Source: Emiliania huxleyi CCMP1516 (Eukaryota). Taken from it: a DNA stretch of 64,000 bases. The notes below the pieces were generated by a model. That model made no database searches, was not told where the DNA came from, and saw only the letters and a list, made by a program, of their open reading frames with translations. Both the position numbers and the translations under genes were made by a program. Shown piece by piece: positions 8,031 to 53,771 of this stretch (its first letter is position 1; the number at the start of each line of letters is the position of its first letter). The DNA lies in the NCBI RefSeq assembly GCF_000372725.1, contig NW_005201192.1:1-64000 (forward strand). The letters are read 5' to 3'.

Positions 8031-8239
8031 CCCCGTACGACGCGCACTTGTCGTCCTCCCTCCTCGCCACATGACGGCCGCCCCCCGACACCGACAGTCG
8101 CGCTCCGCACGCCTTCGAGGTCAGCAGCGGCCGAGCGACGATCGGCTCGCTCCGATCGCTGGGCGGTCACTCTGCGGCCCATCACCCGCCTGCCGATCAC
8201 CTGTCCGCCTCGCCGCGCGCGGGCCGCTCGCCTGCTCGC

Positions 8240-9950: not shown

Positions 9951-11642
9951 ATGTTTCCGCCGACGTCGCCGTCGTCACCGCCGCCAGCTCCTCTGTGCTA
10001 CGGTCTCTTCTTCGCCGTCGTCGCCGGAGATATGTATCCCCAGGAAATGATCTATGCGCCAACCCTGTACTTAATGGTCGCCATCCCTATCTGGCTTGCG
10101 GAGATGAGCATTCCAGCCAATCGACCCGCACTCTTCTGGCTGCTATGGCTGCTGCAGATCCTCCCATTTTGCGCATTCCTTGCACCCGGAGCAGCAAACT
10201 GGTTCATTCCTGGATGTATTCCAGCGCATTTGAATGATGGAGACAATGCAACGGCGGACTTCATCGCCATTTTCTGCGGTGTGCTCATGCTTTGCCTTGG
10301 GCTGTACACCCGTCGCAAGACGCTCATCGCGTTTCGCATGCGTATCAAGTTGATTGAGGGCGAGTTGACCAGCCGCCTCGAAGACGACTCACTTCGGCTG
10401 CTGCGTGTCGCGTGGCTGCGGGCACGCCCCTCTGACTGGGTGCTGCATCGGCGGCAGGATCTGCCAGAAGAGGCATTCTTCAGCTCGGCCGACGCGGTTC
10501 GCCTGCTGGAAAAGAAGAAGGTGGCGGCGCTCTCATACAAGTGGCAAGGCCCCTTCAATTCGTCCAAGGGCGGTGGCGACCAGCCAGATGGCAGCCGCTT
10601 CCACCTGGACAAGGTCCTCTCGTACTACCGGGACGGCCGGCATGCGGAGGAGCGGCCCGCCCTGATGTGGGACTTTGCCGCGTTACCCCAACACGACCCG
10701 ATCACGGGCGCCAAGCGCACGGACTCGGAGGACCGACGTTTTAAGAACGGACTCAGCGTGATGAGCAACGCCTACGCCAGCCCACGCGTGCTAGTGCTGC
10801 AGCAAAAAAGGATTCTGCCAGAGCTGGAGATGGAGCTAAGAACATTTGGCGGCAATCCGCCTGTTGACCGCCTCGATCTCATCCCGTACGAAGGGGATCA
10901 CTGCCGCTCAGGCTGGTGCACTTCCGAGAGTGCATGCGCACAATTGATGACCACCGGTGGCGGTCACTCGTACGAACTCGGTGTGGGGAAGGTCCCCGTG
11001 GCTCCCAGGCGGCTGCCGACTGTGCCGGAGATGGACGCGCTCTTCAACCACAGCTCGACCCGCTTCATCGGCAATGCCGATCGCAGCGAAGTGAGCAAGG
11101 GCTACCTAGAGTTGCGCGCGAAGCTCGAGGCGTACGATGAGGAGCACACGCCAGCGATAGTGCGGTTTGCCGACACGCTAATGACCGGGTACGCGCATGG
11201 TGACGATGGGCTCTTGCGAGTGATCTTCTACCTGTCCATGCTCGTTCCTACAAGCTGGCCCATCCTCCTAGCCACCTTGATCGTGAACCACGAAGCGCCG
11301 CTGGTGCTGCTCCGGAGCACTTGGGTTGCCGCGCGTGTGGTCCGCGTCAACACCCTGCTTTGTCTTCCGCTCCTCCTAACGTTCTTAGCGATCCTCAGCT
11401 TCGTTGAGTGGTGCATAATACCCTGCGTTGGTGCAATGACCGCTAGCACCCAATTGGCTTTCGCCGCTATCTCCATCGCGGTGGCCACCCTTCCCAGCCG
11501 TGTCGTGCGTGGACACCTCGCCGTCATTTTTGGCTACAGCTCGCTTGACAGCCTCGAGTACGCCACCTTCCGCTGCAGCCTCATCAAGCCGCCATTTCGT
11601 AAGCGGGCGTCAGCCGAAGCTTCCACAGACGCCGAGGTGTGA
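9951..11642 (+). CDS. Intronless membrane protein with a central HET-like (heterokaryon-incompatibility, TIR-related) domain
   Basis: 563-aa ORF with hydrophobic helices at both ends. Central motifs RRQDLPEEAF, VAALSYKW, QPDGSRFHL, LMWDFAALPQ, F.NGLSVMSNAY and RSGWCTSE match the HET pattern ALSYxW / WxDxxCI.Q / M..IY / RGWxxxE. Confidence 0.7.
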   Translation: MFPPTSPSSPPPAPLCYGLFFAVVAGDMYPQEMIYAPTLYLMVAIPIWLAEMSIPANRPALFWLLWLLQILPFCAFLAPGAANWFIPGCIPAHLNDGDNATADFIAIFCGVLMLCLGLYTRRKTLIAFRMRIKLIEGELTSRLEDDSLRLLRVAWLRARPSDWVLHRRQDLPEEAFFSSADAVRLLEKKKVAALSYKWQGPFNSSKGGGDQPDGSRFHLDKVLSYYRDGRHAEERPALMWDFAALPQHDPITGAKRTDSEDRRFKNGLSVMSNAYASPRVLVLQQKRILPELEMELRTFGGNPPVDRLDLIPYEGDHCRSGWCTSESACAQLMTTGGGHSYELGVGKVPVAPRRLPTVPEMDALFNHSSTRFIGNADRSEVSKGYLELRAKLEAYDEEHTPAIVRFADTLMTGYAHGDDGLLRVIFYLSMLVPTSWPILLATLIVNHEAPLVLLRSTWVAARVVRVNTLLCLPLLLTFLAILSFVEWCIIPCVGAMTASTQLAFAAISIAVATLPSRVVRGHLAVIFGYSSLDSLEYATFRCSLIKPPFRKRASAEASTDAEV

Positions 11643-11864
11643 GCTGAGTGAGATGCCCTCTGTGACCCTGTCCATCGAGCTGCGACCATCTCCAGGATGA
11701 TAAGATACAAAAGTGAACCCATTATTCATCTCCCGTCTCGAGCGCGCCCACGAATGCTTCAAGGCATGCGCAATAGGCAAGTTGAACGGGGCATATCGTT
11801 ACTTGAAAGATCAAAGCAGCTATAAAGCACGGAAGCGAAACAAACCATTACACTTCATCACGGC

Positions 11865-13217
11865 CTACCACGCATTTTCAACAATCAAGGACAGTCGCCT
11901 TCTTCTGCCACCTTCAAGTGAGCGGGTCATCCGCCCAAAACCTGCGAGACCCGGCGTATATAGGGTGTGAACAGGTGGTGTGAACAGCGTCTCCTCCCCC
12001 CCACGGCGCAAGGTCGGTCGGGTCGGTCGGGTCGGTCGGGTCGGTCGGGTCCGATGCTCGGTCGGGTCGGTCGGGTCGGTCGGGTCCGATGCTCGGTCGG
12101 TCGGTCGGGTCCGATGCTCGGTCGGGTAGCACACCCCTTCGCACCACCAACAGAGCGCACGATACTGCGCGCGGCGCGGCCTTGTGCTTGGCGACGGCGC
12201 GGCTCTTGGGCTGGAAGGACATAACCCCTCGGTCGTCATCAGCTTGTGCACGCCAGCGATGCCCTCCTGGTACTGCAGCGCCTCCTCCAGCGTGGAGCGA
12301 GCCGGCATGCGGCGGCCCATGCCGTCGCGGTACGGATCGAGCTCCGCCTTGGCGGTCGCCTCGGGCACGCCCAGCAGCACGAGCGACTCGCCGAGCTGGT
12401 TCAGGAGCGAGTAGTAGACGTCGTCGCTCGAGACGCACACGTTCTTGTGCTCGACGGTGTTGCGGACGGTGCGAAAGGAGCCCTTGCCGTCGATGGCCGC
12501 CTTCCGCTGCGCCGCGTCGAAGGCGCTGCAGTTCTGCACGCACGCGCACAGCGCGGTCAGGTCCCAGTGGTCGACGCCGTCGAGCACCGTGTGTGGAAAG
12601 TTGATGAAGAGCGCCGCCGTGCGCTCCCAGCGAGGCATGCTGCGGTACTCGTCGCGCTCCTTGCGGCCGGTGGGCACGTTCTTGGAGATGAAGAGCGTGC
12701 CGCTCTCGTGCACGTACTCGTGGAGGAGGACGGCGTAGCGCCGGAAGGCCGCCGCGTCCTCCGGGTCCGGGTCTGTGTCGCGAAGCCACTCTGCGCTCAT
12801 TTTGGCGTCGAGCTCCGCCTGGACGCGCTGCATGACCTGCTTCACGATCACGCGGAGCAGTGGAGCGACGACCTTCTCCGCCGCCTCGCTCACCTGCCGC
12901 ATCACGTCCTCCGCCCGCTGCGCCTGCTTCTCGTTCCGAAGCAGCCTCGCCGCGCGAGACGCCGTCGCCGCGGAGAGCCGGAGCGCCTCGTCCTCCGCCG
13001 CCGACTGCAGAACAAGCCCCTCCTCCGACGCTGCCTCCGCTTGCTCCGCCGCTCCCTGGTCGACAGCGGCGTGATCCCGAGCGGTGCCGTCTCGCCCTCC
13101 TTGGCCGGCATGCATCCGCTCCATCTGCACGGGTGTCGCAACCGGAGCAAGGGTGACGAAAGCCTCTGGCTCCCAGCTCGCCTTCGCCTCAGACTTGGCT
13201 GGCACGAGTAGTGCCAT
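11865..13217 (-). CDS. Putative HEPN-domain protein (DZIP3/Swt1-like); 3' end runs into a simple repeat
   Basis: ATG at 13217 (MALLVPAK). Helical region with HWDLTALCACV followed by RTVRNTVEH (RNxxxH = Rx4H). Coding character is lost after ~12130. Confidence 0.6.
   Translation of the reverse strand: MALLVPAKSEAKASWEPEAFVTLAPVATPVQMERMHAGQGGRDGTARDHAAVDQGAAEQAEAASEEGLVLQSAAEDEALRLSAATASRAARLLRNEKQAQRAEDVMRQVSEAAEKVVAPLLRVIVKQVMQRVQAELDAKMSAEWLRDTDPDPEDAAAFRRYAVLLHEYVHESGTLFISKNVPTGRKERDEYRSMPRWERTAALFINFPHTVLDGVDHWDLTALCACVQNCSAFDAAQRKAAIDGKGSFRTVRNTVEHKNVCVSSDDVYYSLLNQLGESLVLLGVPEATAKAELDPYRDGMGRRMPARSTLEEALQYQEGIAGVHKLMTTEGLCPSSPRAAPSPSTRPRRAQYRALCWWCEGVCYPTEHRTRPTDRASDPTDPTDPTEHRTRPTRPTRPTRPTLRRGGEETLFTPPVHTLYTPGLAGFGRMTRSLEGGRRRRLSLIVENAW
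12012..12126. repeat. Tandem repeat (GGTCGGTCG)n with GGTCCGATGCTC interruptions
   Basis: Directly visible. Confidence 0.9.
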
Positions 13218-13243
13218 GGACCCAGCACCCGTCCTAGATCCGA

Positions 13244-13325
13244 GTCTAGATCTAGGTCTAGGTCTAGGTCTAGGTCTAGGTCTAGGTCTAGGTCTAGGTC
13301 TAGGTCTAGGTCTAGGTCTAGGTCT
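13244..13325. repeat. Hexamer microsatellite (TCTAGG)n, ~13 copies
   Basis: Directly visible just upstream of the HEPN ORF start. Confidence 0.95.
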
Positions 13326-13400
13326 GGGCCTGGGTCGGACGGGTGTCGGACGGGTGTCGGACGTCGGGCCCGGATCGAGGGTGGATGGAGGTAGGACGGA

Positions 13401-13479
13401 GGTGGACGGATGGGAGGGGGTCCGTCCACCTGCGTTTTCCCGTGGAAGGAGCTTGTTCACACCTCTTCCACGGGGAAAA
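13401..13479. other. Two adjacent inverted repeats (stem-loops)
   Basis: GGTGGACGGA-N10-TCCGTCCACC (13401-13430). TTTTCCCGTGGAAG-N16-CTTCCACGGGGAAAA (13435-13479). Confidence 0.8.
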
Positions 13480-13564
13480 ATGACCCTTTTCTACAGGGGT
13501 GGACGGTGGAGGTGGATGGTCGCTCAAAAACTTTTTTTTCAACTTCTCCCTACCTCAGATTTTT

Positions 13565-13816
13565 CTAAGTACTTTTATACTGAATTTTTCTAAGTACTGT
13601 GGACAAGGTGGATAAATACTCTTGCAACAGAGCGATGGCTATGTCGTAGCCGGGCGGCTGTCCGTACTGCGTGTAGTAGGCGCCCTTTATCGTCGCGACT
13701 GCTGCGCTGAGTGTGTGGGCATTTGGCTTGCGCATACTGCTTCGAACATAGTCGAGCGCGGCAGCGACGTTGTGAGCGTGCAACATGGCAACTGCGTTCT
13801 GGTTGCGGGTCGGCAT
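13565..13816 (-). CDS. Small hypothetical protein (83 aa)
   Basis: ATG in A-rich context (AAAAGATG), normal-complexity sequence, intronless, followed by an AT-rich 3' region. No family recognised. Confidence 0.45.
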   Translation of the reverse strand: MPTRNQNAVAMLHAHNVAAALDYVRSSMRKPNAHTLSAAVATIKGAYYTQYGQPPGYDIAIALLQEYLSTLSTVLRKIQYKST

Positions 13817-14154
13817 CTTTTCTATAACGAGGAAAAAAAAACGAGGACACCGCCCCGCCTTGACCGGCTCAGCGAGGAAAAAAAACGAGGCCTAGGACGT
13901 AAGCTCAGCGGCTCAGCGGCTCAGCGGCTCAGCCCGCGACAGATTTCTTTTCTTTTCTTCGTGCTCGGCGTGCGGCGGCGCTCTGGTGGTGACGTGAGCT
14001 GAGCGACCGAGCGGGAAGCGAGCGACTGTGCGGGCACGCGGCACTCCGCCCTTGCCTCCCCCCCCCCTCCGCCCCCACCACTCGCCACCGACACCGGCGC
14101 TCCCGGTCCCACACGCCCAGCGTCCTGAGCGAGCGAGCGAGCGCTGCGCACAGG

Positions 14155-15141
14155 ATGTCGCCACGCCGAGGGGCAGCTCGACCGCGAGGAGCGGACAAGT
14201 CGCCTTTGCTCCGGCCAGGGCCGTACACGTGGCAGCGGACGTTGTCTCCACTTGCCGCCGCTCGTGCCGGCGACTTGGGAGCACGCGCCGCCGCACAGCG
14301 CAACGCTGACCCCCTCGCCGCTGTGGCCACCCCTCGCCGGTCTCCTAGGATCTCTGCTGCGACCCCCGAGAGACAGACGGGGGGGCAGGGGGGGGAATGG
14401 GCGACGCAGGCCCCCGCGAGCGCGATCTCCCAGCACAGCGAGATCGAGGACGAGGAGCAGGAGGGCGAGGATGCGGAAGCGTCGGGGGAGGATGAGGAGG
14501 AGGATGGGGAGGAGGAGGAGGAGGAGGAGGAGGAGGAGGAGGAGGAGGAGGCACTGGCGGAGGAGGATGGGGGGAGGCAGCCAAGCATGCAGGACTTGTT
14601 CGAGGCGGAGCTGGAGGAAGCGCGGCAGGAGATCACAGCCCTCAAGAACAAGGTGGCGTCTCTCGAGGCGAGCCTCTCGGCCGTGCTGGGACGTGTCGCA
14701 GCCCTCGAGAACGGCGATGCGGAGGAGGCGCAGGCGCAAGATTCCGATATGGAGGAGGCTGCCCCGGCCCCGGCTGCTGCCCCGGCCCCGGCTGCAGCGG
14801 GCCCGCTCGTTCCGCAGATGCCGGAAAACGCCCCGGCCCTGGCTGCAGCAGGCCCGCTCTCGCCGCAGACGCCGCCAGATCTCGACCTCACGGACGCGCA
14901 GCGCTCCTTTCGTGAGGAGTTCCGGCTGCAGCAGCAGAACGACCTACTCTCCAACTACACCTTCGTCGGTTCGGACGGACGTGGTGGCATCTACCTCGAA
15001 AAAAACGTTGTCACGGAGGACGGCGTGGAGGAATCCGTCCGCTTCCGCATCCGCCGGTTCACCTCGGTGCCATCGGGGAAGGCGTTCCGCAAGAAGGTGT
15101 ACATGGCTTGGTCGGCGTCCGTTGCTAACCCGCGTAACTAG
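14155..15141 (+). CDS. Hypothetical acidic coiled-coil protein (328 aa)
   Basis: Poly-Glu tract, heptad segment LEEARQEITALKNKVASLEASLSAVLGRVAALE, and a globular-looking C-terminal ~65 aa. Confidence 0.6.
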   Translation: MSPRRGAARPRGADKSPLLRPGPYTWQRTLSPLAAARAGDLGARAAAQRNADPLAAVATPRRSPRISAATPERQTGGQGGEWATQAPASAISQHSEIEDEEQEGEDAEASGEDEEEDGEEEEEEEEEEEEEEALAEEDGGRQPSMQDLFEAELEEARQEITALKNKVASLEASLSAVLGRVAALENGDAEEAQAQDSDMEEAAPAPAAAPAPAAAGPLVPQMPENAPALAAAGPLSPQTPPDLDLTDAQRSFREEFRLQQQNDLLSNYTFVGSDGRGGIYLEKNVVTEDGVEESVRFRIRRFTSVPSGKAFRKKVYMAWSASVANPRN

Positions 15142-15146
15142 GCTGC

Positions 15147-15332
15147 CTATCGCTTCACACTGCGCTTCTTGCGCTTAGCCGCCGCTCGCTTCTTGGCCGC
15201 CGCCTTGGCCTCGGCTGTGAGAACCCAGCGCTTAGTTTTATGTCCTGTCGATCTGCTCACAGAGGATTTCAGCTTGTATCTTCCTCGAACTGTTCCTGGT
15301 TTAACTCCTTTCGTGCTTTTTGGTGCTGGCAT
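15147..15332 (-). CDS. Small, highly basic protein (61 aa), putative nucleic-acid binder
   Basis: MPAPKSTKGVKPGTVRGRYKLK...AKAAAKKRAAAKRKKRSVKR. Lys/Arg-rich. Converges on the 14155-15141 ORF with a 5-bp gap. Confidence 0.5.
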   Translation of the reverse strand: MPAPKSTKGVKPGTVRGRYKLKSSVSRSTGHKTKRWVLTAEAKAAAKKRAAAKRKKRSVKR

Positions 15333-15589
15333 GTGTACTATGAAGGTCTGTGTGTGATACATAGAGGTAGGAAAAAAATCAAGCGCCCTCCGTGAGTCAG
15401 ACCAGTCACCACACCGAAGAGGTCGAAAGTGACTGCTTCCGCGTAAGGAGGGTCGTCCACAGGGCCGTCGGTGGAAAACACTTTCCACTCTTTCCACTCG
15501 AGACGTTCGTGTAGGAGAGTCACCCGGCTCGAACCCATCCCGAACATATAACGGGATAGTTAGAAAAAACGAGCCGGGTCAGAGAGCCT

Positions 15590-15646
15590 CACTAGGACCT
15601 GCACTAGGACCTGCACTAGGACCTGCACTAGGACCTGCACTAGGAC
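15590..15646. repeat. 12-bp tandem repeat (CACTAGGACCTG) x~4.7
   Basis: Directly visible immediately downstream of the recombinase-RuvC stop codon. Confidence 0.9.
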
Positions 15647-15664
15647 TTGGACTCTTCTCTGAAT

Positions 15665-18600
15665 TCACATCGCCTCGTACTCACCGACTGCCAACGAGAA
15701 GCCGCTCTGCACGACGAGCTGGTGCAGCAGGATGCAGACGGCGTCGGTTGCGTCCTTACAGGCCGGCGGAGGGATGCGAAAGCGCTCGAGCAGCGACTCG
15801 CCCTTGCGCGGGAAGGATTTTTTCCAGCTCGATGAATTCACCTCAGACGATCGCCCGGCGCCAGCCTGGTACGCTGCCGCGTGCGCCGCCCCCCGCATGT
15901 AGGACGAGGTGTCGGCGCCCGATGCCGTCCCGGCAGCAAACCGATATGGCTCGACGAACACCTCCTTAGCGCCCCTGAGCATCGGCACGAGCATCTCGAT
16001 AGCGGAGCCGACGCGGATGTCTTGGCGTGACTTGTCGGCCGCGGCTCGAGGCTTGAAGGAGGTCTGCTGCACGCGTGTGATGTCGTTCGACACGACGGTG
16101 GCGACGGCGACGCCGTATCGCGAGTCCGTGATGCCCGGGTCGAGCGCCACGAAACGCTGCTGCGCCGGCTGCGTCGGTGGAGGGGGCGCAACCGGTGCCG
16201 GCGGTGCCAATGCGGGGTCGGGAGAGGTGGTGCCGCTGGCGTCGATGCCCGCCTGGAGCGCCTCGAGCACGGCGGAGTCGTATTTGAACGTCTCCTTGGC
16301 GTTCGACACGCCATAGACGAAGCGAAGCATCTCCGCGCGCAGCTGCTTGTCGACGTCTTTCGCCCACTGTGCCTTGCGCGCGACGGACTGCTTGTTGTGC
16401 AGCACGTGTCGGAGCAGATGCGGCCGCGGCACGGTCTCGCCGTCGGCGATCGTCAACGTGAGCGCCTTGTAGAGGATGTCGCGCTGGTAGCACAAGCGCT
16501 GCCGGCGGTTGTCGTCCGAGACGTTTTTCGGCTTAGGCTTGCAGCCGCTAAACTCGAGAGGCAGCCATTGGTGTACAAAGCGACCGACGATCTCGCCCAG
16601 CGTCCCGTCGGTCGTGAGGAACGAGAACTTGCTGTCGATGATCGCCTGCGTCGTCACTAGCGGTGCCTCGCCGCCTCCTCCTCCGCCGCCACCCTCGCCG
16701 CCTCCTCCGCCGCCGCCACCCTCGCCGCCTCCTCCTCCGCCGCCACCCTCGCCGCATCCGCCGCCGCCACCCTCGCCGCCTCCTCCGCCGCCACCCTCGC
16801 CGCCTCCGCCTCCCTCGCCACCTCCGCCTCCGCAGCCCTCGCCGCCTCCTCCGCCGCCACCCTCGCCGCCTCCTCCGCCGCCACCCCTCGCCGCCTTCTC
16901 CACCCTCGCCCGCTTCGACGACGGCTTGTCGACTGCAGCCTCGCCCGGCCGTAGCTGCGGCAGCTCGCCCGGCCGTAGCTGCGACAGCGAAAAGGTCTGC
17001 GCCGCGTCCTCGGAGTCCGACCACTCGCCCCTCGCCTTCAGCTCCCGCACGCAGAGCTCGACGGCCTCTTCGTTGCACGCGTCTGCCGCCCTCTCGGCCT
17101 CGCAATCCCTCACCGACGCGTCGAGCTCCCAGGGCGTCAGGTAGAGCCGCGCGCCCGTGCGCAGGCTTTCGGAGAGTGGCGTGGCCATGCCCAGCAGCGC
17201 GCGCGCGGCTCTCTCGTCGATTCCTTTCGCTCGAGAGACGATGTCGGAGCGCTCGAGGTCACTCAGCTGGTTGCTCTCCCACGCAGCTTGGATCTTCTCA
17301 GCGTCGTCGCCGGAGAGAAGGATCCGGCCTTGCTTGTCGAGCAGCTTCTCCACGCCGCGCAGGCTCGCCTTGAGCAACTTATCGTTGGCGAAACGATGCG
17401 AAGCGGGGATGAGAACCGTGTCGCCGAGGCGGATCTCCTGCGTCTCATAGTGGGCGAGCCGCTCATCGATCGTCTTGAGAAAGGAGTGGCCGCCAAAGCT
17501 CAGGTCCATGATGCTGCCGACCAACTTGTACGCGTCTGCTGGCGTCGGGGAGTCCTCGGTGATCATCAGCGCCGCGGAGTAGATGCGCGCGCGCGACATG
17601 ACGACCGCCACCTTCATCAGGTACATGCTCGTCTCGAAGAAGTGCGTGACGCTCTTGAACGAGGAGTCCTTGCCCGCAACCTGGAACGCGCGGAAGGCGT
17701 CGCAGTACGGCTTCGACAGCCCCCAGAGGATGAGCTCGGTCATCTCGTCGTCGTGCTCGGTCAACAGCTCCGTGAGCGCGCAGAGAGAGGCGGCCTGCGT
17801 GGGGTCGTCGCCGAGGTAGTGCGCAATCAGCTGCGTGGGGCGCCCGTGCATTGTGTAGTAGTTCTGGTCGCGCCGGCCCTCGCGGTTGTGTTCGGCGATA
17901 CGAGCGCCGTCGGCGTCCGAACAGTCGGGGTTGGCGCTCGTGTGCATCACGTTTAACTGCCGGAGCGCCTTGACGACGCCCCCCTCCACGGACATCCCGA
18001 GCTCCCTTGCAGCATCGCGCAGAGGCTCACTGTACAAGGAGTCGACAAACTCCGACGGCTTGTTGACAGCGCTCGCCAAGGCGGGCCAGTCGACCTTGGC
18101 CTGCTTGTTGTCCCGCCAGCCGGGGGGGGCGAGGTTGGCGAACTCCTTGCCGTGCTGGTACAGGCGCAGGAGGCCGGTTGCGAAGAGCGGACAGAGCGGT
18201 GTGACGCGCGCGGGGATGAGGTTGAGCGGCGCGTGGGACTGGTCGTTCTTGGAGCGGTGGTGCAGAGAGAGGCAGGCCGGCTGCCGACAGTAAGCCGCGT
18301 GCTTGAAAAGCGGAGCGGAGTATTGCTCGCCGGATCCGAACGCTGGGCGGAAGGTCGTGTGGCCGTAGTCCTGCGACACCATCAGGAGCTGCGCGCGCGG
18401 CCCGACGAGCGCAAAGCAGAGGTACTGCCACTGCTGGATCCACTTGTAGCGAGCGGCGGCCGAGTCTGCGGTGTCGGCCAACTCGAGGCACTCTTCCGCC
18501 AAGCGGTGCGCGTCCGAGTACGAGAGGGAGGCGTCGAGGCGGCAGAGCGCACTCTTGTCCTGCGACTCTTTGTGCGCTCGGTCACCCTTCTGTGCGGTCT

Positions 18601-18967
18601 TGTACATCTTGTTGAAGGCGTCCACACTTGAGAGCCACCCCGCCGGCATGCTGGTGAGGAGCACCTTGCAAAAGACGTGCCGCCAGCCGGAGATGATGCA
18701 CCGGCAGTGGCTGACGGTCACCCGCGGGGGGCTGTTCTGCAGAACATACCCCCGCGCCGTCCAGATGCCGGTGAGGCGCGAGAGTTCGGCGACGAGCGGC
18801 GCCGAGCGCCACTCCTCCCATCCGCAGTTCGCGCCGATGCGCTGCGCCCACTCCTCTACCGTCTCCCCCCGGGCCGGCCCGACCTCCTGCAGCGCGCGGA
18901 GGCCCCGTCGGAGCTTGTCGTCGCCCCCCGGGGCCGCGGCGGCGTCGCCGACTCGAGACTCTTCCAT
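15665..18967 (-). CDS. Tyrosine recombinase (Crypton/Ndc10- or protelomerase-like) fused to a C-terminal RuvC-like Holliday-junction resolvase
   Basis: Intronless ORF; likely ATG at 18967 (MEESRV). YR catalytic order: VGPRAQ (R), HRSKND (K), LCPLFATG, VVKALRQ (K/HxxR), IAEH (H), QNYY (Y). Then a Gly-rich linker and a possible GCR1_C-like segment. RuvC motifs: FVALDPG, VFVE, SSWKK, KDATDAVCI. Confidence 0.7.
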   Translation of the reverse strand: MEESRVGDAAAAPGGDDKLRRGLRALQEVGPARGETVEEWAQRIGANCGWEEWRSAPLVAELSRLTGIWTARGYVLQNSPPRVTVSHCRCIISGWRHVFCKVLLTSMPAGWLSSVDAFNKMYKTAQKGDRAHKESQDKSALCRLDASLSYSDAHRLAEECLELADTADSAAARYKWIQQWQYLCFALVGPRAQLLMVSQDYGHTTFRPAFGSGEQYSAPLFKHAAYCRQPACLSLHHRSKNDQSHAPLNLIPARVTPLCPLFATGLLRLYQHGKEFANLAPPGWRDNKQAKVDWPALASAVNKPSEFVDSLYSEPLRDAARELGMSVEGGVVKALRQLNVMHTSANPDCSDADGARIAEHNREGRRDQNYYTMHGRPTQLIAHYLGDDPTQAASLCALTELLTEHDDEMTELILWGLSKPYCDAFRAFQVAGKDSSFKSVTHFFETSMYLMKVAVVMSRARIYSAALMITEDSPTPADAYKLVGSIMDLSFGGHSFLKTIDERLAHYETQEIRLGDTVLIPASHRFANDKLLKASLRGVEKLLDKQGRILLSGDDAEKIQAAWESNQLSDLERSDIVSRAKGIDERAARALLGMATPLSESLRTGARLYLTPWELDASVRDCEAERAADACNEEAVELCVRELKARGEWSDSEDAAQTFSLSQLRPGELPQLRPGEAAVDKPSSKRARVEKAARGGGGGGGEGGGGGGGEGCGGGGGEGGGGGEGGGGGGGEGGGGGCGEGGGGGGGGEGGGGGGGGEGGGGGGGGEAPLVTTQAIIDSKFSFLTTDGTLGEIVGRFVHQWLPLEFSGCKPKPKNVSDDNRRQRLCYQRDILYKALTLTIADGETVPRPHLLRHVLHNKQSVARKAQWAKDVDKQLRAEMLRFVYGVSNAKETFKYDSAVLEALQAGIDASGTTSPDPALAPPAPVAPPPPTQPAQQRFVALDPGITDSRYGVAVATVVSNDITRVQQTSFKPRAAADKSRQDIRVGSAIEMLVPMLRGAKEVFVEPYRFAAGTASGADTSSYMRGAAHAAAYQAGAGRSSEVNSSSWKKSFPRKGESLLERFRIPPPACKDATDAVCILLHQLVVQSGFSLAVGEYEAM

Positions 18968-19025
18968 GTGAGACGGCGTGTGATACGAGACGGCGGGCAG
19001 TGGTGGACCTGCAACACACACATAC

Positions 19026-21533
19026 ATGCCCGTGGCCGCTCCCCCGCTCCCTGCCGCCTTCCGCGTCGGCGGCCGGCCCGTGCTCGGCTTTCTCATCCAC
19101 CGTTACGACCTCTTCGACCTCGGCGAGACCGAGCTCGTCTTTGGCCCGCCCTGCACGAGCAAGCAGCTCGGCGTCCGGCGGCCGTTTGTTGACGCCGTCG
19201 AGGCTGCCATGAATGGTCTCTTTGGGGACGTGGTGCCGGCGCTCACCTCGCTCGAGGTGTGCCTCCCGGAGGCGCTGCCCGACGACTTACTCGAGGGCAA
19301 GCGGGCTGGTGGACGCAACGCGTTCACCGCCTTCCACACGAGGGGCGTCCGCGTCGTGGTCACCTTCTCGCCCAAGCTCGGCACGCGCGAGCTGACGTGC
19401 CTAGGCGAGCCGACGTGGCGGTGTTGGCCGGCGGACTCAGCGCACTGGTACTCGATCGGCCTGCTCCGCCCCTGGTTCAGCGAGTCGCTCCCGCCCGACG
19501 AGTGCGAGCGGCGCATCACCGCCCACTTTGAGGCGGGCGCGCACCGCGAGTACCGCGAGCCCAACAAGACGGACCCCAGGCGCTGGCAGCTCGATGACGG
19601 CTCGGCGGTTCCGCTCGGCGGCAAGACGCGGCTGCCGGGCTCGGCGTGGCGGATCTGGGGGCTGCGAGGCTACCGGCTGCTCCCGGACGGCGGCGCGCAC
19701 GGCCGCGACGGCAGCCTCGTGCCCGAGGCCAGCCTGGCGCAGATCGCAAAGGAGGAGCTGCTGCCGTGGCCCGGCGCGGCCCTCGACTGGCGGCCCTCGG
19801 AGGCGGACGCGGAGTGCTGGTTCCGCCCCCTCGACGAGGAGACGACGGCGGCGCTCTTGCGGCTGCAAGCGGATCTGCGCGCGCAGCCGGCGCGGCCGCA
19901 GGGGCAGCAGGGGCAGCAGGGGCAGCAGGGGCAGCAGGGCGGGGTGCTCGGCGGTCGGAAGACGGACACTCGCGTCCGGCGCGTGGTGTGGCACCTCGCG
20001 CCGACGGGCCCCCGCGCGATGGTCGTCGTCGGCCACGCGTCGTGGGGAGGCGGCAATGACAAGAGCGGGCTGCGGCTCAAGGCGCTGCCGACGGCGGGCG
20101 AGCTCGCGGGGCCTTGCGCCGCGCTGCCCCCTCTTCCAGAGGCGGAGCAGCTGACTGCAGACGTCATCGCGCCCGTCTCGCACGTCCTCGCCTTCAACGC
20201 GCTGCTCGACGTGGCGTGGTGCAAGCCGAGCCCGCCGCCGAGCGGCCTAGCAGCGGGCGCCGAGACCGTCGCTTCGAGCAGCGCAGGCGGCAGCGACCCT
20301 CTCGTGCCGGTGGCGTGCGGCGTACCCGTCGGCGAGGGGAGGGCGGTGAGCAACGCGCTCGCCCGCGACGGCCCTCTCCCGCGGTACGCCGCCGCCGTTC
20401 CCGCCGACGCGGGGGCGGACACGTTGGAGAGGGCGGCGGCGAGGCAGGCCGAGCGCTTGCAGTTCGCCGAGGAGGGCAGGGCGGAGCAGCTAAAGTACGA
20501 CGAGGCGTGGCTCGCCGAGCGGGTGCCGAGCGCGGAGGATCTCGCCAGGAGCGCGCAGCGGGCTGCCGGCCCGGCGGGCTCCTCTTGCACGGGCTCCTCT
20601 TTCACGGGCGAGCCCTCCGTGTGCCAGTCGCTTGCGCGCCGGCTCGGAGCCCACATCCAGGCGGACCCGTTCGCCAACCCGCTGCTCAACGCGTCGGCCG
20701 AGGAGCTCGAGCGCACCGACGCGGCGTGGGGGCGGCTCTGCGACGATGACGCCGTCTGGATGGAGCCGGTAATCTTACGGCTCGTGGAGGCGGCGCCCGA
20801 GGGGCGCAAGGCGGGCGTGAGCCAGGAGCTGCGCGGGATGCAGCTCGACCTTGCGCGCACGGAGACTCGGCCCGCCCCGCCGCACCTGCGCCAGCTCGCG
20901 CAGGCGATGTACCCGTGCAAGGACGACCTCGCCGCGTGCCGCGCTTGGGACGCGCATTTCCGCAGCGGCGTGCCGTACGGCATGATCGACGTCGTCGGCC
21001 GCCTCCTTGCGGCCACTCTTGAGCTGCTCTGCCGGGAGGAGCGCGAAGCGGAGGACGCTGAGCGGCTTGTGGAGCGCGACCCCGCGTTCGTGGCCGCGCA
21101 GCGGGGGCGCGGCGGAGAAGCGGCACGAGTCGTGAATAAGCCTGCCGAGACACCGCGGCTAACCGCGGCTAACAAGGTTGCGGAGATGCGCGAGCTAACA
21201 GCGGGGTTGCCGGTCCCGGCGCCAGTGGAGGGGGTGGGCGCGCTGGGCAAGCGCAGAGCGGTGCCGTGCGACGTGGGTGCGGGTGCCAAGCGCCAGCGGC
21301 CCGGCGCGGGTGAGTCCGCGCGCTCGCTGCCGCCGAGTGAGGTGCCGGGCCGCCGCGCCGAGGTGCTGGAGGGACTACGCCGCGTGCTTCGCTTTGTGGA
21401 TCAGAGCCCGGAGGAGTTCTGGCTCAAGCACGGGCCAGCCGGGCCGTTCCCCTTCCCTGAGCAGCTGGCTGCATTGAGGGCGGAGCTGGCGGGGCCGTTT
21501 CAGGGGGGGGCGCCGTCACACGGGCGCGTGTAG
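19026..21533 (+). CDS. Hypothetical protein (835 aa), divergent from the recombinase gene
   Basis: Long intronless ORF with strong GC3 bias and Trp-rich globular segments. Its ATG is only 58 bp from the likely recombinase ATG. No family recognised. Confidence 0.7.
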   Translation: MPVAAPPLPAAFRVGGRPVLGFLIHRYDLFDLGETELVFGPPCTSKQLGVRRPFVDAVEAAMNGLFGDVVPALTSLEVCLPEALPDDLLEGKRAGGRNAFTAFHTRGVRVVVTFSPKLGTRELTCLGEPTWRCWPADSAHWYSIGLLRPWFSESLPPDECERRITAHFEAGAHREYREPNKTDPRRWQLDDGSAVPLGGKTRLPGSAWRIWGLRGYRLLPDGGAHGRDGSLVPEASLAQIAKEELLPWPGAALDWRPSEADAECWFRPLDEETTAALLRLQADLRAQPARPQGQQGQQGQQGQQGGVLGGRKTDTRVRRVVWHLAPTGPRAMVVVGHASWGGGNDKSGLRLKALPTAGELAGPCAALPPLPEAEQLTADVIAPVSHVLAFNALLDVAWCKPSPPPSGLAAGAETVASSSAGGSDPLVPVACGVPVGEGRAVSNALARDGPLPRYAAAVPADAGADTLERAAARQAERLQFAEEGRAEQLKYDEAWLAERVPSAEDLARSAQRAAGPAGSSCTGSSFTGEPSVCQSLARRLGAHIQADPFANPLLNASAEELERTDAAWGRLCDDDAVWMEPVILRLVEAAPEGRKAGVSQELRGMQLDLARTETRPAPPHLRQLAQAMYPCKDDLAACRAWDAHFRSGVPYGMIDVVGRLLAATLELLCREEREAEDAERLVERDPAFVAAQRGRGGEAARVVNKPAETPRLTAANKVAEMRELTAGLPVPAPVEGVGALGKRRAVPCDVGAGAKRQRPGAGESARSLPPSEVPGRRAEVLEGLRRVLRFVDQSPEEFWLKHGPAGPFPFPEQLAALRAELAGPFQGGAPSHGRV

Positions 21534-21858
21534 ACTGGCCTTGGGAAGGACGTCGCGAGCGGGGACACCGGCACCGGCACCTTTCGTCGGGGCGAGAGCC
21601 GAGAGCGTGCCGTGGGCGGGCAACGGCAACTGAACGCTCCCACCCCAAAAGTGTTTAACATACAAAAAAAGCAGATGGTGGGGCCAGGACGGGTCGATTC
21701 ACACACTTAGACCCTCACAGCTCACAGCTCACACACGGCTCTAGATATTCGTCCTTTTACACGTCTAGCGGACAGACCCGGACACACGTCAGCTCTAGCC
21801 ATCGGACGCGGGATAGTAGTAGACACAGCAGCAAGAAACTAGCAGGAGTAGAGCAGCA

Positions 21859-21893
<35 letters not shown>

Positions 21894-22025
21894 ACCATGC
21901 TGCTGCCGCCGCCCGCCACGGCGGCTGCGGCGGGGTGAGGGCGAGCTGCACTGCTCGGCCGCCTCTCGGGTCGCGGCGGCAGCCGGCGATGGCGGCGTGG
22001 CAACCGCAGGCGGAGAGACTCGCGC

Positions 22026-25000
22026 TCATTCCGCAGCCGGCCCCGGCCCCGCACCGACCAGGGGCGCAGTGCTCGGGCCACTTGCTGCCGCCTGGATGGT
22101 GGCCGCTGGATCGTCGCCATCGCGCGAAAGCGTCGCATGCACCTCCGGGAGCGGGCAGACCGAGAGCGGCCCGGTCGAGAGCGGGTTGTCGCAGACGGTG
22201 CACTGGAGCGGGGCGCCGGGCGTGGCGACGGAAGAGTCGACGTAGTCCCGGATGCACTCGCGGCAGAAGGCGTGGCCGCACGGGCTCGACGCGACCGGGT
22301 CCGTGGCGTCCTCGAAGCAGAGGTTGCAGGTGGGCGTCGCTTGCCCATAGGTGTGGTCGAGCCTCCCCCCCACGGCCGTCCAGGCGGCCACCATGGCAGA
22401 CGCCATCGTCTTGTACCACATGTCGGCGTGCACGGCCGCCAGCCTCCGGTAGAGCCGCCGCAGGGCACTCTGCGGCTCGTCCATCTGCTCGCTGTCGCAC
22501 ACGTGTGTCACATTGATCTGCTTCGGGCCATGAGGGCCGCGCGCGCAGCGGTGCACGAGCTGCACCGCGTCGTGCAGCGACCACGATGGTGTGCCGACCA
22601 GCACAAGGGCGGAGCAGCTGCCAAAAGCGTTGGTGCCGGCCGCGTTCGCGTCGACGGAGGCCACAAAGATGTACCTCGTCTGGGGCGGCGGCTGCGGCGC
22701 AGCGATCAGCTGCTCCGCGCGGCGGCGGCCGTCGGGCCCGATGGCATCGACCACGACGACGGTGTGCGGCGTAGCGGGCGCAGCAAGCAGCGAGAGCAGC
22801 GTGAGGATCGAGTGGGCGACGTCGAGGAGATGAGTGGCGACGAGGATGTGCCGGTGGCCTCCCCCTGCGGCGTGGTGCACCGCTGCGAGGACGGCGCCCT
22901 CCACGGCCGGAGAGAGGCCGCCGCTGCTGCGGAGGAGGCCGCTGTTGCCGAGCATGTCGGACTTGGCGGCCATCGGAGTGTCAACCACGCACACGCTCGC
23001 CACGTAGGTCTTTTCCCACGGATGCTCCATGGGCACGGTGTTCGCGAGCAGCTCCTGCATCAGCGGGGACGCCGAAGCCACATCGCCCGCGGCGCTGTCG
23101 AAGCACGGGACGGCGCTCACTGCGACGATGCTCTTCGCGGCCTCGAGGCACTGCTGCTGCGCGCGCCGGTCGTGCACAGCTCGGCCGTACGCCGTGCGCA
23201 TCAACAGCGCCGCCTCGTCGATGACGACGTGCAAGTTGCCGCAGCCGTCGGCGGCGGCTGCGACGAGCTCGGCGCTGCCGAAAAAGTCGCAGTGCCGCAT
23301 GAGGACCACGCTCGTCATCCCTCCGTTGCGGCGGAGCGTGGCGGAGACGGCTGCTGCGATGCGCTTGCGCTGCGACTCGTCGCTGGAGTCGAGGGCGCGC
23401 TCGCCGAGCACGCACACGCACACGTCCATGCGACGCAAGGGTTCGGCCAAGTCCGCGAGCGACGTGGGGGGCGCTAGCACGAGCACGGCCGGAGGCTCAC
23501 CCTCGGCGCTCACCCCCGCCGCGAGGCGTCCGCGGCACCACTCCAACATCACCTTCGTCTTGCCGGCGCCGCACGGGGCAACGAGGAGCCTGGTGGCGCT
23601 CCCGCTCTCTGCTGCGCCCAGCGCCGCGACCGCGTTGATCTGGTGCTCCATCAGGCTGCCGTCGGGATCGAGACGCAGCGCGCCGCAGCCGGCGAGAGCG
23701 GCCGGGGCCGCCCGGCGGAGGAGCTCGAGGGAACGCAGCGTGCGTTCGACGGGCGCCTCCGGCGTGCTCGGGCGAGCGGCCGCAAAGTCTGCAAACTCGG
23801 GGCACAGGCTCGACCCGGCGTGCGTCGCGCCGTCCGCCACTGTGACGCTGACGCGGGCATCACGCAGCGGCGCGCAGGGCGGCACCGCAATGCCGACGGG
23901 GGGGTCCGCCGCAGCTGCGCGCATGGCCGATGCCATGGCCGAGCAAAACTCAGGCTGCACGGCGTTGGCGCCACCACAGGCGAAGGCGGTGGCAAAGGCG
24001 GAGGCGTGCTGGTCGCGCGTGACCTCGCAGCCGGGCGGCGCGTAGACGTGGTAGCCGGCGGGCGAGCGCACCACGGTGGTGAGATTGTGCTGCGCAGCGG
24101 CGGCGCGCATCACCGCGTCGCACGACGGGCAGACGGGGTACTTGACAACAACGAAGGCGTGGGTCGCGGCCTCCGAGACCGCGCGCACGACAACGCGCAC
24201 CTCGGTGTGTTGCGCGAGTCGCGAGTGCGGGAGGAAGCCGCAGATGCGGCCTGGGCGGGGGCAGCACTTGCACCTCTCCGGCCGCGGCGCCGCCCCCGAA
24301 AAGCCAGCCGCCTGCGCCAGCTGTAGGTGCAGCTGGCCGCTCGCCTCGCCGTTCTCGTCGGGCCGCGGCGTCGGGATGGTGATCGGCTGTCCGCACGGCG
24401 TGCAGGTCAGATCGCGTGGCAGAAACCAAACTTCTGTTGTGATGCCAGACGCCACTGCACACACACGTTGCTGGTAAGATCCGCCGCCGGTGAGCACATA
24501 CGCGGCGGCGCACGCACCGCCGCCGTCGCTCGCGTCGGCCCACGTCGAGCGCTCCTGCGGCGACTCGGCTTGTCGCTGCTGCTGCTGCTGCCGCCGCTGC
24601 GGCTCCGCCTGCGACAGCGGAGGGTGCAGCTCAACCTCACGGCCGGATCTCGGCCCAATCTCGGGTAAATCAGGAGATACAGCCGAGAGACAGCCGAGAG
24701 ACAGCGGAGAGACAGCGGAGAGACAGCCGAGAGACAGCCGAGAGACAGCGGAGAGACAGCCGAGAGAGACAGCCGAGAGAGACAGCCGAGAGAGACAGCC
24801 GAGAGAGACAGAGAGAGAGACAGCCGAGATATAGCCCCATTCTCTCCTCGGCTCCGCTAAACCACAGCTGTATCTCGTCTTAGGGCCTACCTCCGCCGGC
24901 TGCGCCTCCTCGATGGCGGCGGAGGCGGCGCCAGCCTCGGCGCCAGCAGCAGTGGAGGGCGCCGGTGGCGGCCCCTCCCCCTCCGCTTCCGCCGCCGCCG

Positions 25001-25702
25001 CCGCCGCCTGCTCCGCCGCGCCCTCCGCAGCCGCCGCCGCCGCCGCCGCCGCCGCCGCCTGCTCCGTCGACGCCGCCGCCTCTGCGGCCGCCTCCGGCTC
25101 TGCGGCCGCCTCCGCCTCTGCGGCCGCCTCCACCTCCGCAAACGCCGCCGCCGCCGCCGCCGCCTCCTCCTCCGCCTCTGTCACGAGCGGTGTACGCGCT
25201 GGGGCACGCGCCAGGAGGGGTGGAGGGTTGATCCCCGCCAGCACACGCTCGCACTCCGACCCCACCCTCTGCCGGGCCTCGAGCAGGATCTCGGTGCTGT
25301 CGCAGGGGCGCGCCCGATCCAAGCCGAGCGGCTCGAACGACCACGACACGCCAGAACCGACCCGACTCGACTTGAACCACGGCGCACGCCGACTCGCATC
25401 CGCTGGCTGCGTCGCCTCGTCGCCCTGGTACGCGCGGTTGTTGCACAACAGTGTGCCAAGGCGCGAGGACGGCTCCGCGCTGTCGAGCAGCTCGCGCAAG
25501 CTCGTGACCAGCGACTTCAGCTCCTCGCCCGCCTGCTGCACGAACTGCTGCAAGCATCCGAGGAGCTGCTCCTTGCTCAGCGGGCCGTGGCGGGCAAGGA
25601 CTAGCGCGGCGACGTCACGGGTGCGACAAGTGAACCTTGCCGCTTGGGCTAGCCCGCTCGCCGGCGCCGCCGCCACAGCTGGCGCCGCCTGCTCCGCCCC
25701 GC

Positions 25703-25743
<41 letters not shown>

Positions 25744-26500
25744 TGCTCCACCGGCGCCGCCGCCGCTGCAGCCTCCGCCGCCGCCTCGACCGCCCGCGCG
25801 TACGCCACCGCCGCCTCCACCGCGGTGTCGAAGGGGTTGCCGATTTGTTTGCTCCTCCCGCCCACGGTGTGCCTCGCCGAGAAGCGACCTGAGGGCAGCT
25901 CGCACACGCCCTTGTACCTGGTGGCGGTGCGGCTGGAGAGGTGCAGCCGCAAGCCCTCCGCCTCTGTTGCCACCGCTGCCGCTTGGCGCTCAGCCGGCGC
26001 CTCGGCGACTGCAGCCTCGCCGCCAGCGCCGCCTGGCTCGCCCTCGCCCGAGTCCGCCGTCCCGCCCACCGCCGACGTCTCGCCCACCGCCGCTGCCGAC
26101 GGCCCTGCCTCTCCTGCCGCCGCCGCCTCGCCGACCGCCCACGCGTATGCCACCGCCGCCTCCACCGCGGTGTCGAAGAAGCCGAGGGAGACGCCCCGCC
26201 TGCGCGCCCAGAAGCGGCCTGAGAGCTGCTTGAACACGCCCTTGTAACCGGTGGCGTTGCTGCTCGAGAGAAGCAAGCGCAAACCCTCCGCCTACACAGA
26301 ACGTCGCAGCAGTAGTGACCGATGGCGCGGCGGATCTGCGTGTGCGCCGCACTGCGCGCACATCTCGGTCCTCGCCGACGCCGCACGCAAAGTCGCTGTA
26401 GAAGTTTGCTAGTGGGCCGATGGATGCGGCACCCGCGCCCAGGAGCTTGTCGGCGTAGTAGTCGAGCGCCTCGCCCACCTCGGCCACACGCGCTGCAATT
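22026..26500 (-). CDS. Multidomain protein: 2x AP2-like, winged-helix-like, Cys motifs, divergent SF2 (SNF2-like) helicase, C-terminal C3HC4 RING; 5' end lost at the gap
   Basis: AP2-like LRLHLSSRTATRYKGV...FDTAVEAAVAYARAV (twice). wHTH-like DVAALVLARHGPLSKEQL. Helicase motifs: LMEHQ, APCGAGKT, VVIDEAA, SAVP, AAGTNA, QLVHRCAR. RING CNLC...CGHAFCREC...CTVC. Probable intron at ~24640-24890. Confidence 0.75.
24675..24830. repeat. Intronic tandem repeat (GAGACAGCCGA)n
   Basis: Directly visible 11-13-bp units inside the probable intron of the helicase gene. Confidence 0.85.
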
Positions 26501-26795
26501 TCGCCGGCGCGCCACGCCACGCCAGGCTCCCGCGCTCCGCGCTCCGCCTTTGGGCACAGGATGCGAATGATTCTCTCCCCCCCCCCCCCCCCCGTTCCTT
26601 TGGTCGCTTGCCCAGTGACCCGGGGGGCGCAAAGGACCGCCGACTCTTGGAATGGGAAAGGGGATCTCAAGATTGCATCCGCGGTTCGCGAGAAAAACCC
26701 TCCCCCCCCCTTGCACTCTAGCAAAAATTCTTGCCCGATAAAAAGAACCATTGTGCCCCTTTATCTTCGCACTTATCTCTTAATCTTTGTAAATC

Positions 26796-26895
26796 NNNNN
26801 NNNNNNNNNNNNNNNNNNNNNNNNNNNNNNNNNNNNNNNNNNNNNNNNNNNNNNNNNNNNNNNNNNNNNNNNNNNNNNNNNNNNNNNNNNNNNNN
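26796..26895. other. Assembly gap (100 N) with low-quality flanks
   Basis: N run, with homopolymer C/G tracts on both sides. Confidence 0.98.
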
Positions 26896-53759: not shown

Positions 53760-53771
53760 GGCGAGGCGCGA

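What the first reader, a model, noticed from the sequence alone, without database searches (positions are those of the whole stretch)
11960..26500. Candidate large cargo-carrying element or endogenised virus-like block built around the YR-RuvC gene
Seen: host genes here are mostly intron-rich and widely spaced, but 13.5-21.5 kb holds five tightly packed intronless ORFs (5-bp convergent gap at 15141/15147; 58-bp divergent gap at 18967/19026). They are separated by AT-richer spacers with hairpins and short tandem arrays, and flanked by a HEPN gene and a helicase-RING gene. Established: YR-mobilised giant elements (fungal Starships, YR-encoding Polinton-like viruses) carry such cargo and often leave no classical TSD. 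Inference: this is one mobile unit. No capsid, packaging ATPase or polymerase was recognised, and I could not define the ends.
Basis: partly seen in the sequence, partly recalled or inferred. Interest (0 to 1): 0.8.

Follow-up and report, generated by a model that had tools for sequence, protein, structure and literature searches.

The report
Recombinase–resolvase fusion transposon in a coccolithophore
A coccolithophore alga appears to carry several near-identical copies of a gene predicted to join a DNA-swapping tyrosine recombinase to a phage-type Holliday-junction cutter, likely the engine of an unusual jumping DNA element that is probably smaller than the proposed block and in which no virus genes were recognised.

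Summary
The host is Emiliania (Gephyrocapsa) huxleyi or a very close relative. The five packed ORFs are real. The 1100-aa ORF (15665-18967, -) has two predicted catalytic domains. One is a eukaryote-type tyrosine recombinase (ESM Atlas 0.96; R191, K240, K333xxR336, H360, Y370/371). The other is a C-terminal phage-type RuvC resolvase (0.92; D943, E1006, D1072, D1075), not Fanzor. An intact 62%-identical relative keeps the fusion. In two DNA-like runs this gene lies at 2.3-2.6x and the start of the divergent 835-aa ORF at about 1.7-2.1x host-gene depth. Variant copies differ at 12 of 12 codons non-synonymously, and other sequence follows the stop codon in other copies. The 13.3-15.6 kb part lies at 0.56-0.79x, and one form skips 1834 bp of it. 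The HEPN-like and helicase-RING genes look like host genes. So a mobile element is likely, but 11960-26500 as one unit and a viral origin are not supported. Best reading: a Crypton-like YR DNA transposon whose fused RuvC would cut the recombinase's Holliday-junction intermediate. Ends, empty sites and activity are not shown.

The parts
15665..18967 (-). 1100-aa YR-RuvC fusion gene, the predicted transposase; appears multi-copy
   Evidence: relatives; depth 2.3-2.6x
17798..18547 (-). Predicted tyrosine-recombinase catalytic domain (aa 141-390): R191, K240, K333xxR336, H360, Y370/Y371
   Evidence: ESM Atlas on aa 60-400, first hit 0.96, ALOG/Phage_integrase/NDC10_II clan; 76% identical to the relative against 54-63% in the other non-linker regions, all candidate residues kept
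16669..16895 (-). Gly-rich linker (within aa 666-766), replaced by a Pro/Ser-rich linker in the relative
   Evidence: 8% identity over aa 666-766
15668..16165 (-). Predicted RuvC-family Holliday-junction resolvase domain (aa 935-1100): D943, E1006, D1072, D1075; no zinc finger
   Evidence: ESM Atlas 0.92, 178-185 of 256 shared features, phage RuvC clusters
19026..21533 (+). 835-aa ORF of unknown family, divergent from YR-RuvC; its 5' part also appears multi-copy
   Evidence: depth about 1.7-2.1x with variants up to 19880; no Pfam, PHROG or NCBIfam match
15590..15653 (.). (CACTAGGACCTG)n array just after the RuvC stop; left edge of the high-depth core and one side of the alternative joint
   Evidence: tables 2, 5, 8
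13757..15590 (.). 1834-bp variable segment, skipped or replaced in another form; holds the 328-aa and 62-aa ORFs
   Evidence: joint 13756->15591 in X1 (depth 13) and X7 (depth 53), letters between not known
14155..15141 (+). 328-aa ORF: acidic tract, coiled-coil-like stretch, unknown C-terminal domain; possible cargo
   Evidence: only weak compositional hits
15147..15335 (-). 62-aa basic ORF (22 K/R), possibly nucleic-acid binding; possible cargo
   Evidence: no PHROG match
13565..13816 (-). 83-aa ORF, GC 53%; weak DUF5375/phrog_5991 match; cut by the alternative joint; may be spurious
   Evidence: E 0.0046, under cut-off; E 0.0009
13380..13519 (.). Cluster of five GGTGGAYGG motifs with an 11-bp inverted repeat around a 10-bp spacer (13400-13431) and a second hairpin (13439-13474); candidate left end or recombinase site
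   Evidence: 5 of 5 window matches lie here; z -3.4; pattern chosen after seeing the sequence
13244..13336 (.). (GTCTAG)n array; contig depth in X1 falls from 0.91x to 0.57x across it
11865..13217 (-). HEPN-like ORF (label from the R-x4-H motif only); probably a flanking host gene with a repeat-filled 3' intron
   Evidence: (0.91x in X1; 94% relative in X18)
22026..26291 (-). Open frame of a helicase-RING gene with two AP2-like repeats (label recalled) and a likely intron from 24890 holding the GAGACAGCCGA-type array 24673-24826; probably a flanking host gene
   Evidence: depth not measured

Best explanation
This is likely a young, multi-copy DNA transposon of Emiliania huxleyi whose single enzyme is predicted to join a tyrosine recombinase to a phage-type RuvC Holliday-junction resolvase. 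The core seen repeated is the YR-RuvC gene plus the start of the divergent 835-aa ORF (15.6 kb to at least 19.9 kb). The 13.3-15.6 kb part is variable: cargo of this copy, or a neighbouring insertion. The HEPN-like and helicase-RING genes are probably host flanks. Inferred mechanism: the YR binds the element ends and a target, cuts one strand of each through Tyr370/371 and exchanges them, which makes a Holliday junction. RuvC domains tethered on the flexible linker would pair on that junction and nick the other two strands, and host ligase would seal them. This would replace or back up the second YR exchange and relax the need for matching overlap sequence at the target. Excision would give a circle, as proposed for Cryptons. 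Shown: the ORFs, the kept residues, raised contig depth, variant copies, an alternative joint. Predicted: both folds. Inferred: mobility, ends and every catalytic step.
For: YR: ESM Atlas first hit 0.96; 10 of the ten best hits with a family share a family or clan with the best, which carries ALOG_dom and Phage_integrase; an unnamed 132-member cluster whose one recorded phylum is Haptophyta ranks second. RuvC: 0.92, 178-185 shared features, phage RuvC clusters. A full-length relative (cluster of 10, ENA/Logan) keeps both domains and all 11 candidate catalytic residues, with aa 141-390 the most conserved part. Fragments at 71-91% show further subfamilies. KxxR in place of HxxR occurs in SSV1-type integrases (PMC8371274, passages). 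Depth 2.5-2.6x in X1 and 2.3-2.5x in X7 against the flanking host gene; an X1 contig continues for 872 unlaid letters beyond 15660; joint 13756->15591 in both runs. All 13 X1 differences fall in 12 codons, all non-synonymous (P 0.02-0.03 even under neutrality), while the family is conserved between lineages: the pattern of drifting transposon copies. No RT, capsid or polymerase match.
Against: The lay tool warns that contig depth is no copy number, and X1 or X7 may be the source of the assembly. No Pfam, NCBIfam, PHROG or PDB sequence match names either domain. The Atlas calibration was not measured for parts of proteins, its YR hits share only 141-165 features, one of its caveats is that a third of shuffled proteins also get ten of ten in one clan, and PF02075 is on only 11% of the cluster shown. 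Depth does not show that other copies share the motif cluster at 13380-13519, and no counterpart of it lies on the right. In integrons the one-exchange junction is resolved by replication and not by RuvABC (PMC3458562, passages), so a RuvC step has no direct precedent.
Confidence: 0.55

Rival explanations
1. One larger, Starship-like cargo carrier from about 13.3-13.4 kb to beyond the helicase-RING gene, with YR-RuvC as its captain and cargo that differs between copies.
For: The motif and hairpin cluster at 13380-13519 and the depth step across 13244-13336 could mark a hemizygous left end. Sequence downstream of the recombinase varies between copies. Packing is dense.
Against: No DUF3435 match. 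The recombinase is not the first gene. The HEPN-like gene sits at host depth in X1. The helicase-RING gene looks host-like. The left segment is below, not above, single-copy depth.
Confidence: 0.15
2. A decayed remnant of a polinton-like or dwarf virus whose separate Y-rec and resolvase genes fused and whose capsid module was lost or is unrecognisable.
For: Oxyrrhis PLVs carry separate Y-rec and HJR genes (PMC12721341, passages). [quoted passage not shown] The RuvC neighbours are viral. A small basic ORF and two low-GC ORFs lie in the left segment.
Against: No capsid, A32 ATPase or pPolB match. Core GC 67-74% against 37.5-54.5% reported for integrated Phaeocystis PLVs. No TIR. The YR neighbours with a recorded taxon are eukaryotic clusters.
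Confidence: 0.12
3. A domesticated or immobile host recombinase-resolvase gene, lying in a duplicated or collapsed segment.
For: Host-like codon use. An intact relative at 62%. Covered by contigs of a run guessed to be RNA (X6). Crypton YRs have been domesticated many times (PMC3212892, passages).
Against: 12 of 12 codon differences between copies are non-synonymous. Sequence changes right after the stop codon in other copies. Domesticated YRs usually lose catalytic residues, whereas these are kept. No NCBI-annotated orthologue came up in three homologue searches.
Confidence: 0.1
4. A protelomerase-like YR plus a poxvirus-style resolvase that maintain a hairpin-ended linear replicon, here integrated.
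For: KxxR at the HxxR position is typical of telomere resolvases and topoisomerase IB (recalled, no call). RuvC-type enzymes resolve concatemers in poxviruses (recalled; the HJR's occurrence in poxviruses is stated).
Against: Protelomerase needs a palindromic junction (PMC3558466, passages), and no perfect palindrome of 18 bp or more lies in 11960-26500. No telomere-resolvase family appears among the Atlas rows shown. No replication gene.
Confidence: 0.08

Closest known systems
Crypton YR DNA transposons (CryptonF/S/A/I; PMC3212892)
   Same: YR-encoding, no RT, no TIR, ends hard to define; some carry a second ORF; CryptonF and CryptonS have a C-terminal extension; an NDC10_II (Crypton-derived) cluster is among the Atlas neighbours
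   Different: K in place of H in HxxR; a long helical middle region; a fused C-terminal RuvC resolvase where CryptonF has GCR1_C; terminal 4-6-bp repeats not testable; no Crypton report for this host found
DIRS1-type YR retroposons with ALOG domain (PMC3537659)
   Same: The top Atlas cluster carries ALOG_dom (81%) and Phage_integrase (36%)
   Different: No gag, RT/RNase H or LTR-like repeats in the block
Fanzor-carrying Cryptons (PMC13565253, PMC3627910)
   Same: A YR element that also encodes a RuvC-fold nuclease
   Different: Here the nuclease is fused in frame and has the D-E-DxxD layout of Holliday-junction resolvases, without zinc finger; its Atlas neighbours are phage RuvC, not TnpB
Oxyrrhis marina PLV and PgVV-group PLVs
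   Same: YR and HJ resolvase in one element; integrated in algal or protist genomes
   Different: There they are separate genes beside MCP, ATPase and polymerase, with TIRs (and low GC in Phaeocystis PLVs); none of these was found here
Fungal Starships (PMC10104507)
   Same: YR-driven, content may vary downstream of the recombinase
   Different: No DUF3435 captain, recombinase not at the first position, size and cargo not established, not fungal
Phage RuvC-family resolvases (PF02075, DUF3882)
   Same: Size, four acidic residues and their spacing; Atlas 0.92
   Different: A tethered C-terminal domain of a eukaryotic recombinase; too diverged for any HMM match

Membership tests
Tyrosine recombinase superfamily | YR catalytic fold | tested here: met
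   Language-model features only (0.96); HMMs gave nothing and both AlphaFold models failed
Tyrosine recombinase superfamily | R...K...(H/K)xxR...H/W...Y residues | tested here: met
   R191, K240, K333xxR336, H360, Y370/371, kept in the relative; KxxR variant as in SSV1-type integrases; positions assigned by motif and spacing
RuvC Holliday-junction resolvase | RNase-H-like fold with D...E...DxxD | tested here: met
   D943, E1006, D1072, D1075; Atlas; E. coli RuvC spacing recalled
RuvC Holliday-junction resolvase | Cleavage of four-way junctions | not testable with these tools
   needs an enzyme assay
Crypton | YR present, no reverse transcriptase | tested here: met
Crypton | Catalytic tetrad R-H-R-Y | tested here: not met
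   K333 stands at the His position in both lineages
Crypton | No TIR; 4-6-bp terminal direct repeats | tested here: inconclusive
   No TIR among the spacers; ends unknown, so direct repeats cannot be read
Crypton | Dispersed copies with empty sites | tested here: inconclusive
Crypton | YR groups with Crypton YRs in a tree | not tested
   No Crypton sequences were in hand; the deep profile search never ran
DIRS/Ngaro retrotransposon | gag and RT/RNase H with split or inverted LTRs | tested here: not met
Starship | DUF3435 captain as first gene | tested here: not met
   no DUF3435 hit; definition from PMC10104507 passages
Polinton-like virus | MCP, mCP and packaging ATPase | tested here: not met
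   no Pfam or PHROG match; very remote capsids could escape, and the 835-aa ORF has no fold assigned
Polinton-like virus | TIRs and GC below host | tested here: not met
   only the two small left ORFs are low in GC
Fanzor/TnpB | Zinc finger between RuvC-II and RuvC-III; omega RNA | tested here: not met
   Cys only at 1070 and 1078 in the domain; no Rfam match in 11500-26790; zinc-finger criterion recalled
Protelomerase system | Perfect palindromic target or hairpin end | tested here: not met
   requirement from PMC3558466 passages

The most novel reading that the evidence does not exclude
A new group of eukaryotic DNA transposons whose transposase is a natural tyrosine-recombinase/Holliday-junction-resolvase fusion. 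It would do one strand exchange, cut its own junction with the tethered RuvC, and so integrate without overlap homology, carrying variable cargo between haptophyte genomes.
Probability: 0.3. Interest if true: 0.85.

Novelty: new variant of a known kind. Interest (0 to 1): 0.62.

Why it matters
Tyrosine recombinases resolve their own Holliday junction by a second strand exchange, and the exception read here (integrons) uses replication. A YR carrying its own RuvC resolvase would be a further route. It could be tested in vitro with two point mutants, and it may relax target-sequence limits, which matters for gene-insertion tools. Crypton transposition has not been shown experimentally (PMC13565253, passages). 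The element is also a candidate driver of the strain-to-strain genome variation for which this bloom-forming alga is known (recalled).

Tried and rejected
Structure: AlphaFold on the whole protein (pLDDT 36) and on aa 1-396 with 7 rows (pLDDT 36) failed; Foldseek on the second model gave no match at E<=0.001 and is meaningless; the wide VIA search did not run. The deep profile search of representatives never ran (queue full in 10 of 10 tries), so the family's range is unknown. Related loci: none in metagenome contigs, viral contigs (YR-RuvC 15, 90; first 285 aa of the 835-aa ORF 73; helicase-RING 104) or genome contigs (89), so co-occurrence of the ORFs at other loci is untested. The hairpin pattern hit one 42% GC viral contig with no other similarity: chance. 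No tblastn match of either domain in phages; no PDB sequence match better than E 0.28; no Rfam match; no second copy inside the window. Run X18 has almost no cover of YR-RuvC, but also none over 10010-12159 of the flanking host gene, so it is no empty-site evidence. X6 covers 15975-18810 in one contig, but RNA is only a guess; its in-frame 168-nt skip in the Gly repeat may be a repeat collapse. X7 shows 6-8x depth over the HEPN-like gene where X1 shows about 1x; this is unexplained. Earlier scan findings: five look-ups, nothing. Rejected: Fanzor, DIRS, Starship and PLV membership (see Membership tests).
Full report
Host. The 1218-aa ORF at 31377-35033 stands letter for letter in the protein collection, in a 90% cluster whose named member is the magnesium chelatase H subunit of Emiliania huxleyi. 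The window is therefore from this haptophyte or a very close relative.

Observation. The five ORFs, the 5-bp and 58-bp gaps and the arrays are real, and 91% of 13565-21533 is coding. The contrast with the host is weaker than stated. Twelve uninterrupted ORFs of 295 codons or more lie outside the block, five with Pfam hits above cut-off. GC3s of the two large ORFs (0.85, 0.89) is in the host range (0.70-0.97), and only two spacers are AT-richer. The block is denser than the rest, but being intronless does not set it apart.

The central gene. Pfam, NCBIfam, PHROGs, PDB sequences and phage records name neither domain, and two AlphaFold runs failed. The ESM Atlas gave a signal for each part. Residues 60-400 score 0.96 against clusters with ALOG_dom and Phage_integrase and 0.95 against NDC10_II; an unnamed 132-member cluster whose one recorded phylum is Haptophyta ranks second. 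Residues 930-1100 score 0.92 with 178-185 shared features against phage RuvC-family clusters. The Atlas warns that its calibration was not measured for parts of proteins. Candidate catalytic residues are R191, K240, K333xxR336, H360, Y370/371 and D943, E1006, D1072, D1075. Three searches of the large protein collection found a full-length relative at 62-63% (cluster of 10 members, ENA and Logan) and five fragments at 71-91%, all unnamed. The relative keeps both domains and all 11 residues. Its identity is 76% in aa 141-390, 54-63% in the other non-linker regions and 8% in the linker. With 76% local identity, keeping single residues is only modest evidence. The fusion is nevertheless not an accident of this assembly. 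The RuvC part has no zinc finger, so it is not Fanzor/TnpB, the RuvC-fold nuclease already reported in Cryptons.

Copy number and boundaries. Fourteen of 18 listed runs hold part of 13300-21700, eight of them (all 'organism A') with half of the words or more. Four runs were laid on 7000-19880; nothing to the right of 19880 was laid. X1 and X7 cover 30 of 30 bins and match the flanking host gene without differences, so they behave as DNA of this or a near strain; either may be the source of the assembly. Relative to that host gene (10.9 in X1, about 62 in X7), contig depth is as follows. The HEPN-like gene is at 0.91 in X1. The stretch from 13296 to 14.0-14.5 kb is at 0.57 and 0.56, and 14.6-15.6 kb at 0.79 and 0.69. 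YR-RuvC is at 2.5-2.6 and 2.3-2.5, and the 5' part of the 835-aa ORF at about 1.7-2.1 (one X7 bin there, 19040-19469, is only 1.1x). The tool warns that depth is no copy number, but three further signs point the same way. First, the YR-RuvC contigs carry variants, whereas the listed host-gene and left-segment contigs carry zero or one. Second, an X1 contig matches from 15660 rightwards and has 872 letters before it for which no laid piece is shown (most pieces are hidden). Third, both runs hold a contig joining 13756 to 15591, skipping 1834 bp with the 328-aa and 62-aa ORFs (shorter side 63 letters, letters between not known). All 13 differences in the two long X1 contigs fall in 12 codons and all change the residue. 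The chance under neutral change is 0.02-0.03; the relative has the window's residue at 4 of these codons, the X1 residue at 3, and neither at 5. Drift among young copies with conservation between lineages is the usual signature of a transposon (inference; the contigs may be mosaics of copies, and n is small). For the 835-aa ORF the displayed subset gave 5 synonymous and 6 non-synonymous changes.

Ends. All five GGTGGAYGG matches of the window lie in 13380-13519 (0 of 200,000 random placements cluster so tightly, but the pattern was chosen after seeing it). They include an 11-bp inverted repeat with a 10-bp spacer. YR sites are usually 11-13-bp inverted repeats around 6-8 bp, so this is a candidate site with a slightly long spacer. 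Against it, depth does not show that the other copies share it, and no partner lies on the right. The left end is either here or at the array near 15590-15660. The right end is unknown. The next gene is an open frame from 26291 to 22026 with RING, a weak helicase match, two AP2-like repeats (label recalled) and a likely intron holding a tandem array. It looks like a host gene, but its depth was not measured.

Mechanism. A YR reaction passes through a Holliday junction that a second exchange normally resolves. A RuvC domain tethered by a long variable linker is most simply explained as cutting that junction, so that one exchange plus nicking and host ligation completes excision or integration. 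KxxR is compatible with an integrase (SSV1 type). No step is shown. The one-exchange precedent, integrons, uses replication and not RuvABC. RuvC might instead act on replication or repair intermediates of an excised circle.

Comparison and novelty. It works like a Crypton but fails the R-H-R-Y tetrad as written, and the terminal repeats and tree placement are untested, so I do not file it as one. DIRS, Starship, PLV and Fanzor membership tests were not met. YR and HJ resolvase occur as separate genes in Oxyrrhis PLVs. Nine paper searches on the element, the fusion and the host showed no report of an in-frame YR-RuvC resolvase fusion in the listings or passages seen. The library lacks most subscription papers and Repbase, so this is no proof of absence. 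Papers seen as keyword passages only: 10.1101/2022.07.28.501842, PMC3627910, PMC12721341, PMC10104507, PMC3266345 (a DIRS1-like element in E. huxleyi left uncertain), PMC3212892, PMC3537659, PMC13565253, PMC3458562, PMC8371274, PMC3558466. All others were seen as search listings only (including). No supplements were read; those of the Crypton and PLV papers may list relevant elements.

Verdict. A probable YR DNA transposon with a predicted recombinase-resolvase fusion; the core is smaller than the proposed block and not viral as far as tested. New variant of a known kind, interest 0.62.

Noticed in passing
window 28542-29422: 881-bp MITE-like element with a perfect 81-bp terminal inverted repeat built of TGTAGAG/CTCTACA units and internal hairpins.
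   Followed up: no
window 4225-4302 and 38283-38360: 78-bp inverted pair at 90%, 34 kb apart; probably two copies of a dispersed repeat.
   Followed up: no
window 7000-8290: Very high contig depth (up to about 110x host in X1 and 200x in X7) with many variants: a high-copy repeat or large gene family.
   Followed up: no
window 47800-48050 and 53520-53980: Two related GC-rich stretches sharing a 14-bp-stem hairpin (48006-48045, 53935-53975) and flanking sequence; a small repeat family.
   Followed up: no
window 3046-3397, 36198-36240, 43831-43856: Long perfect hairpins or palindromes (stems 12-21 bp) outside the block.
   Followed up: no
window 11964-11986 and 13454-13463: GGTGTGAACA twice in the HEPN-like gene's 3' repeat region and once inverted in the loop of the second hairpin; probably a common host motif.
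   Followed up: partly
window 13836, 13880, 15564: AAAAAACGAG followed shortly by CTAGGAC occurs on both sides of the variable segment; possible promoter or recombination relic.
   Followed up: partly
window 12160-13019: HEPN-like gene at about 1x depth in X1 but 6-8x in X7, with a 94% relative in X18; unexplained, perhaps a strain-variable family.
   Followed up: partly
window 26796-26895: 100-N assembly gap flanked by poly-C and poly-G runs just right of the proposed block, so contiguity beyond it is uncertain.
   Followed up: no
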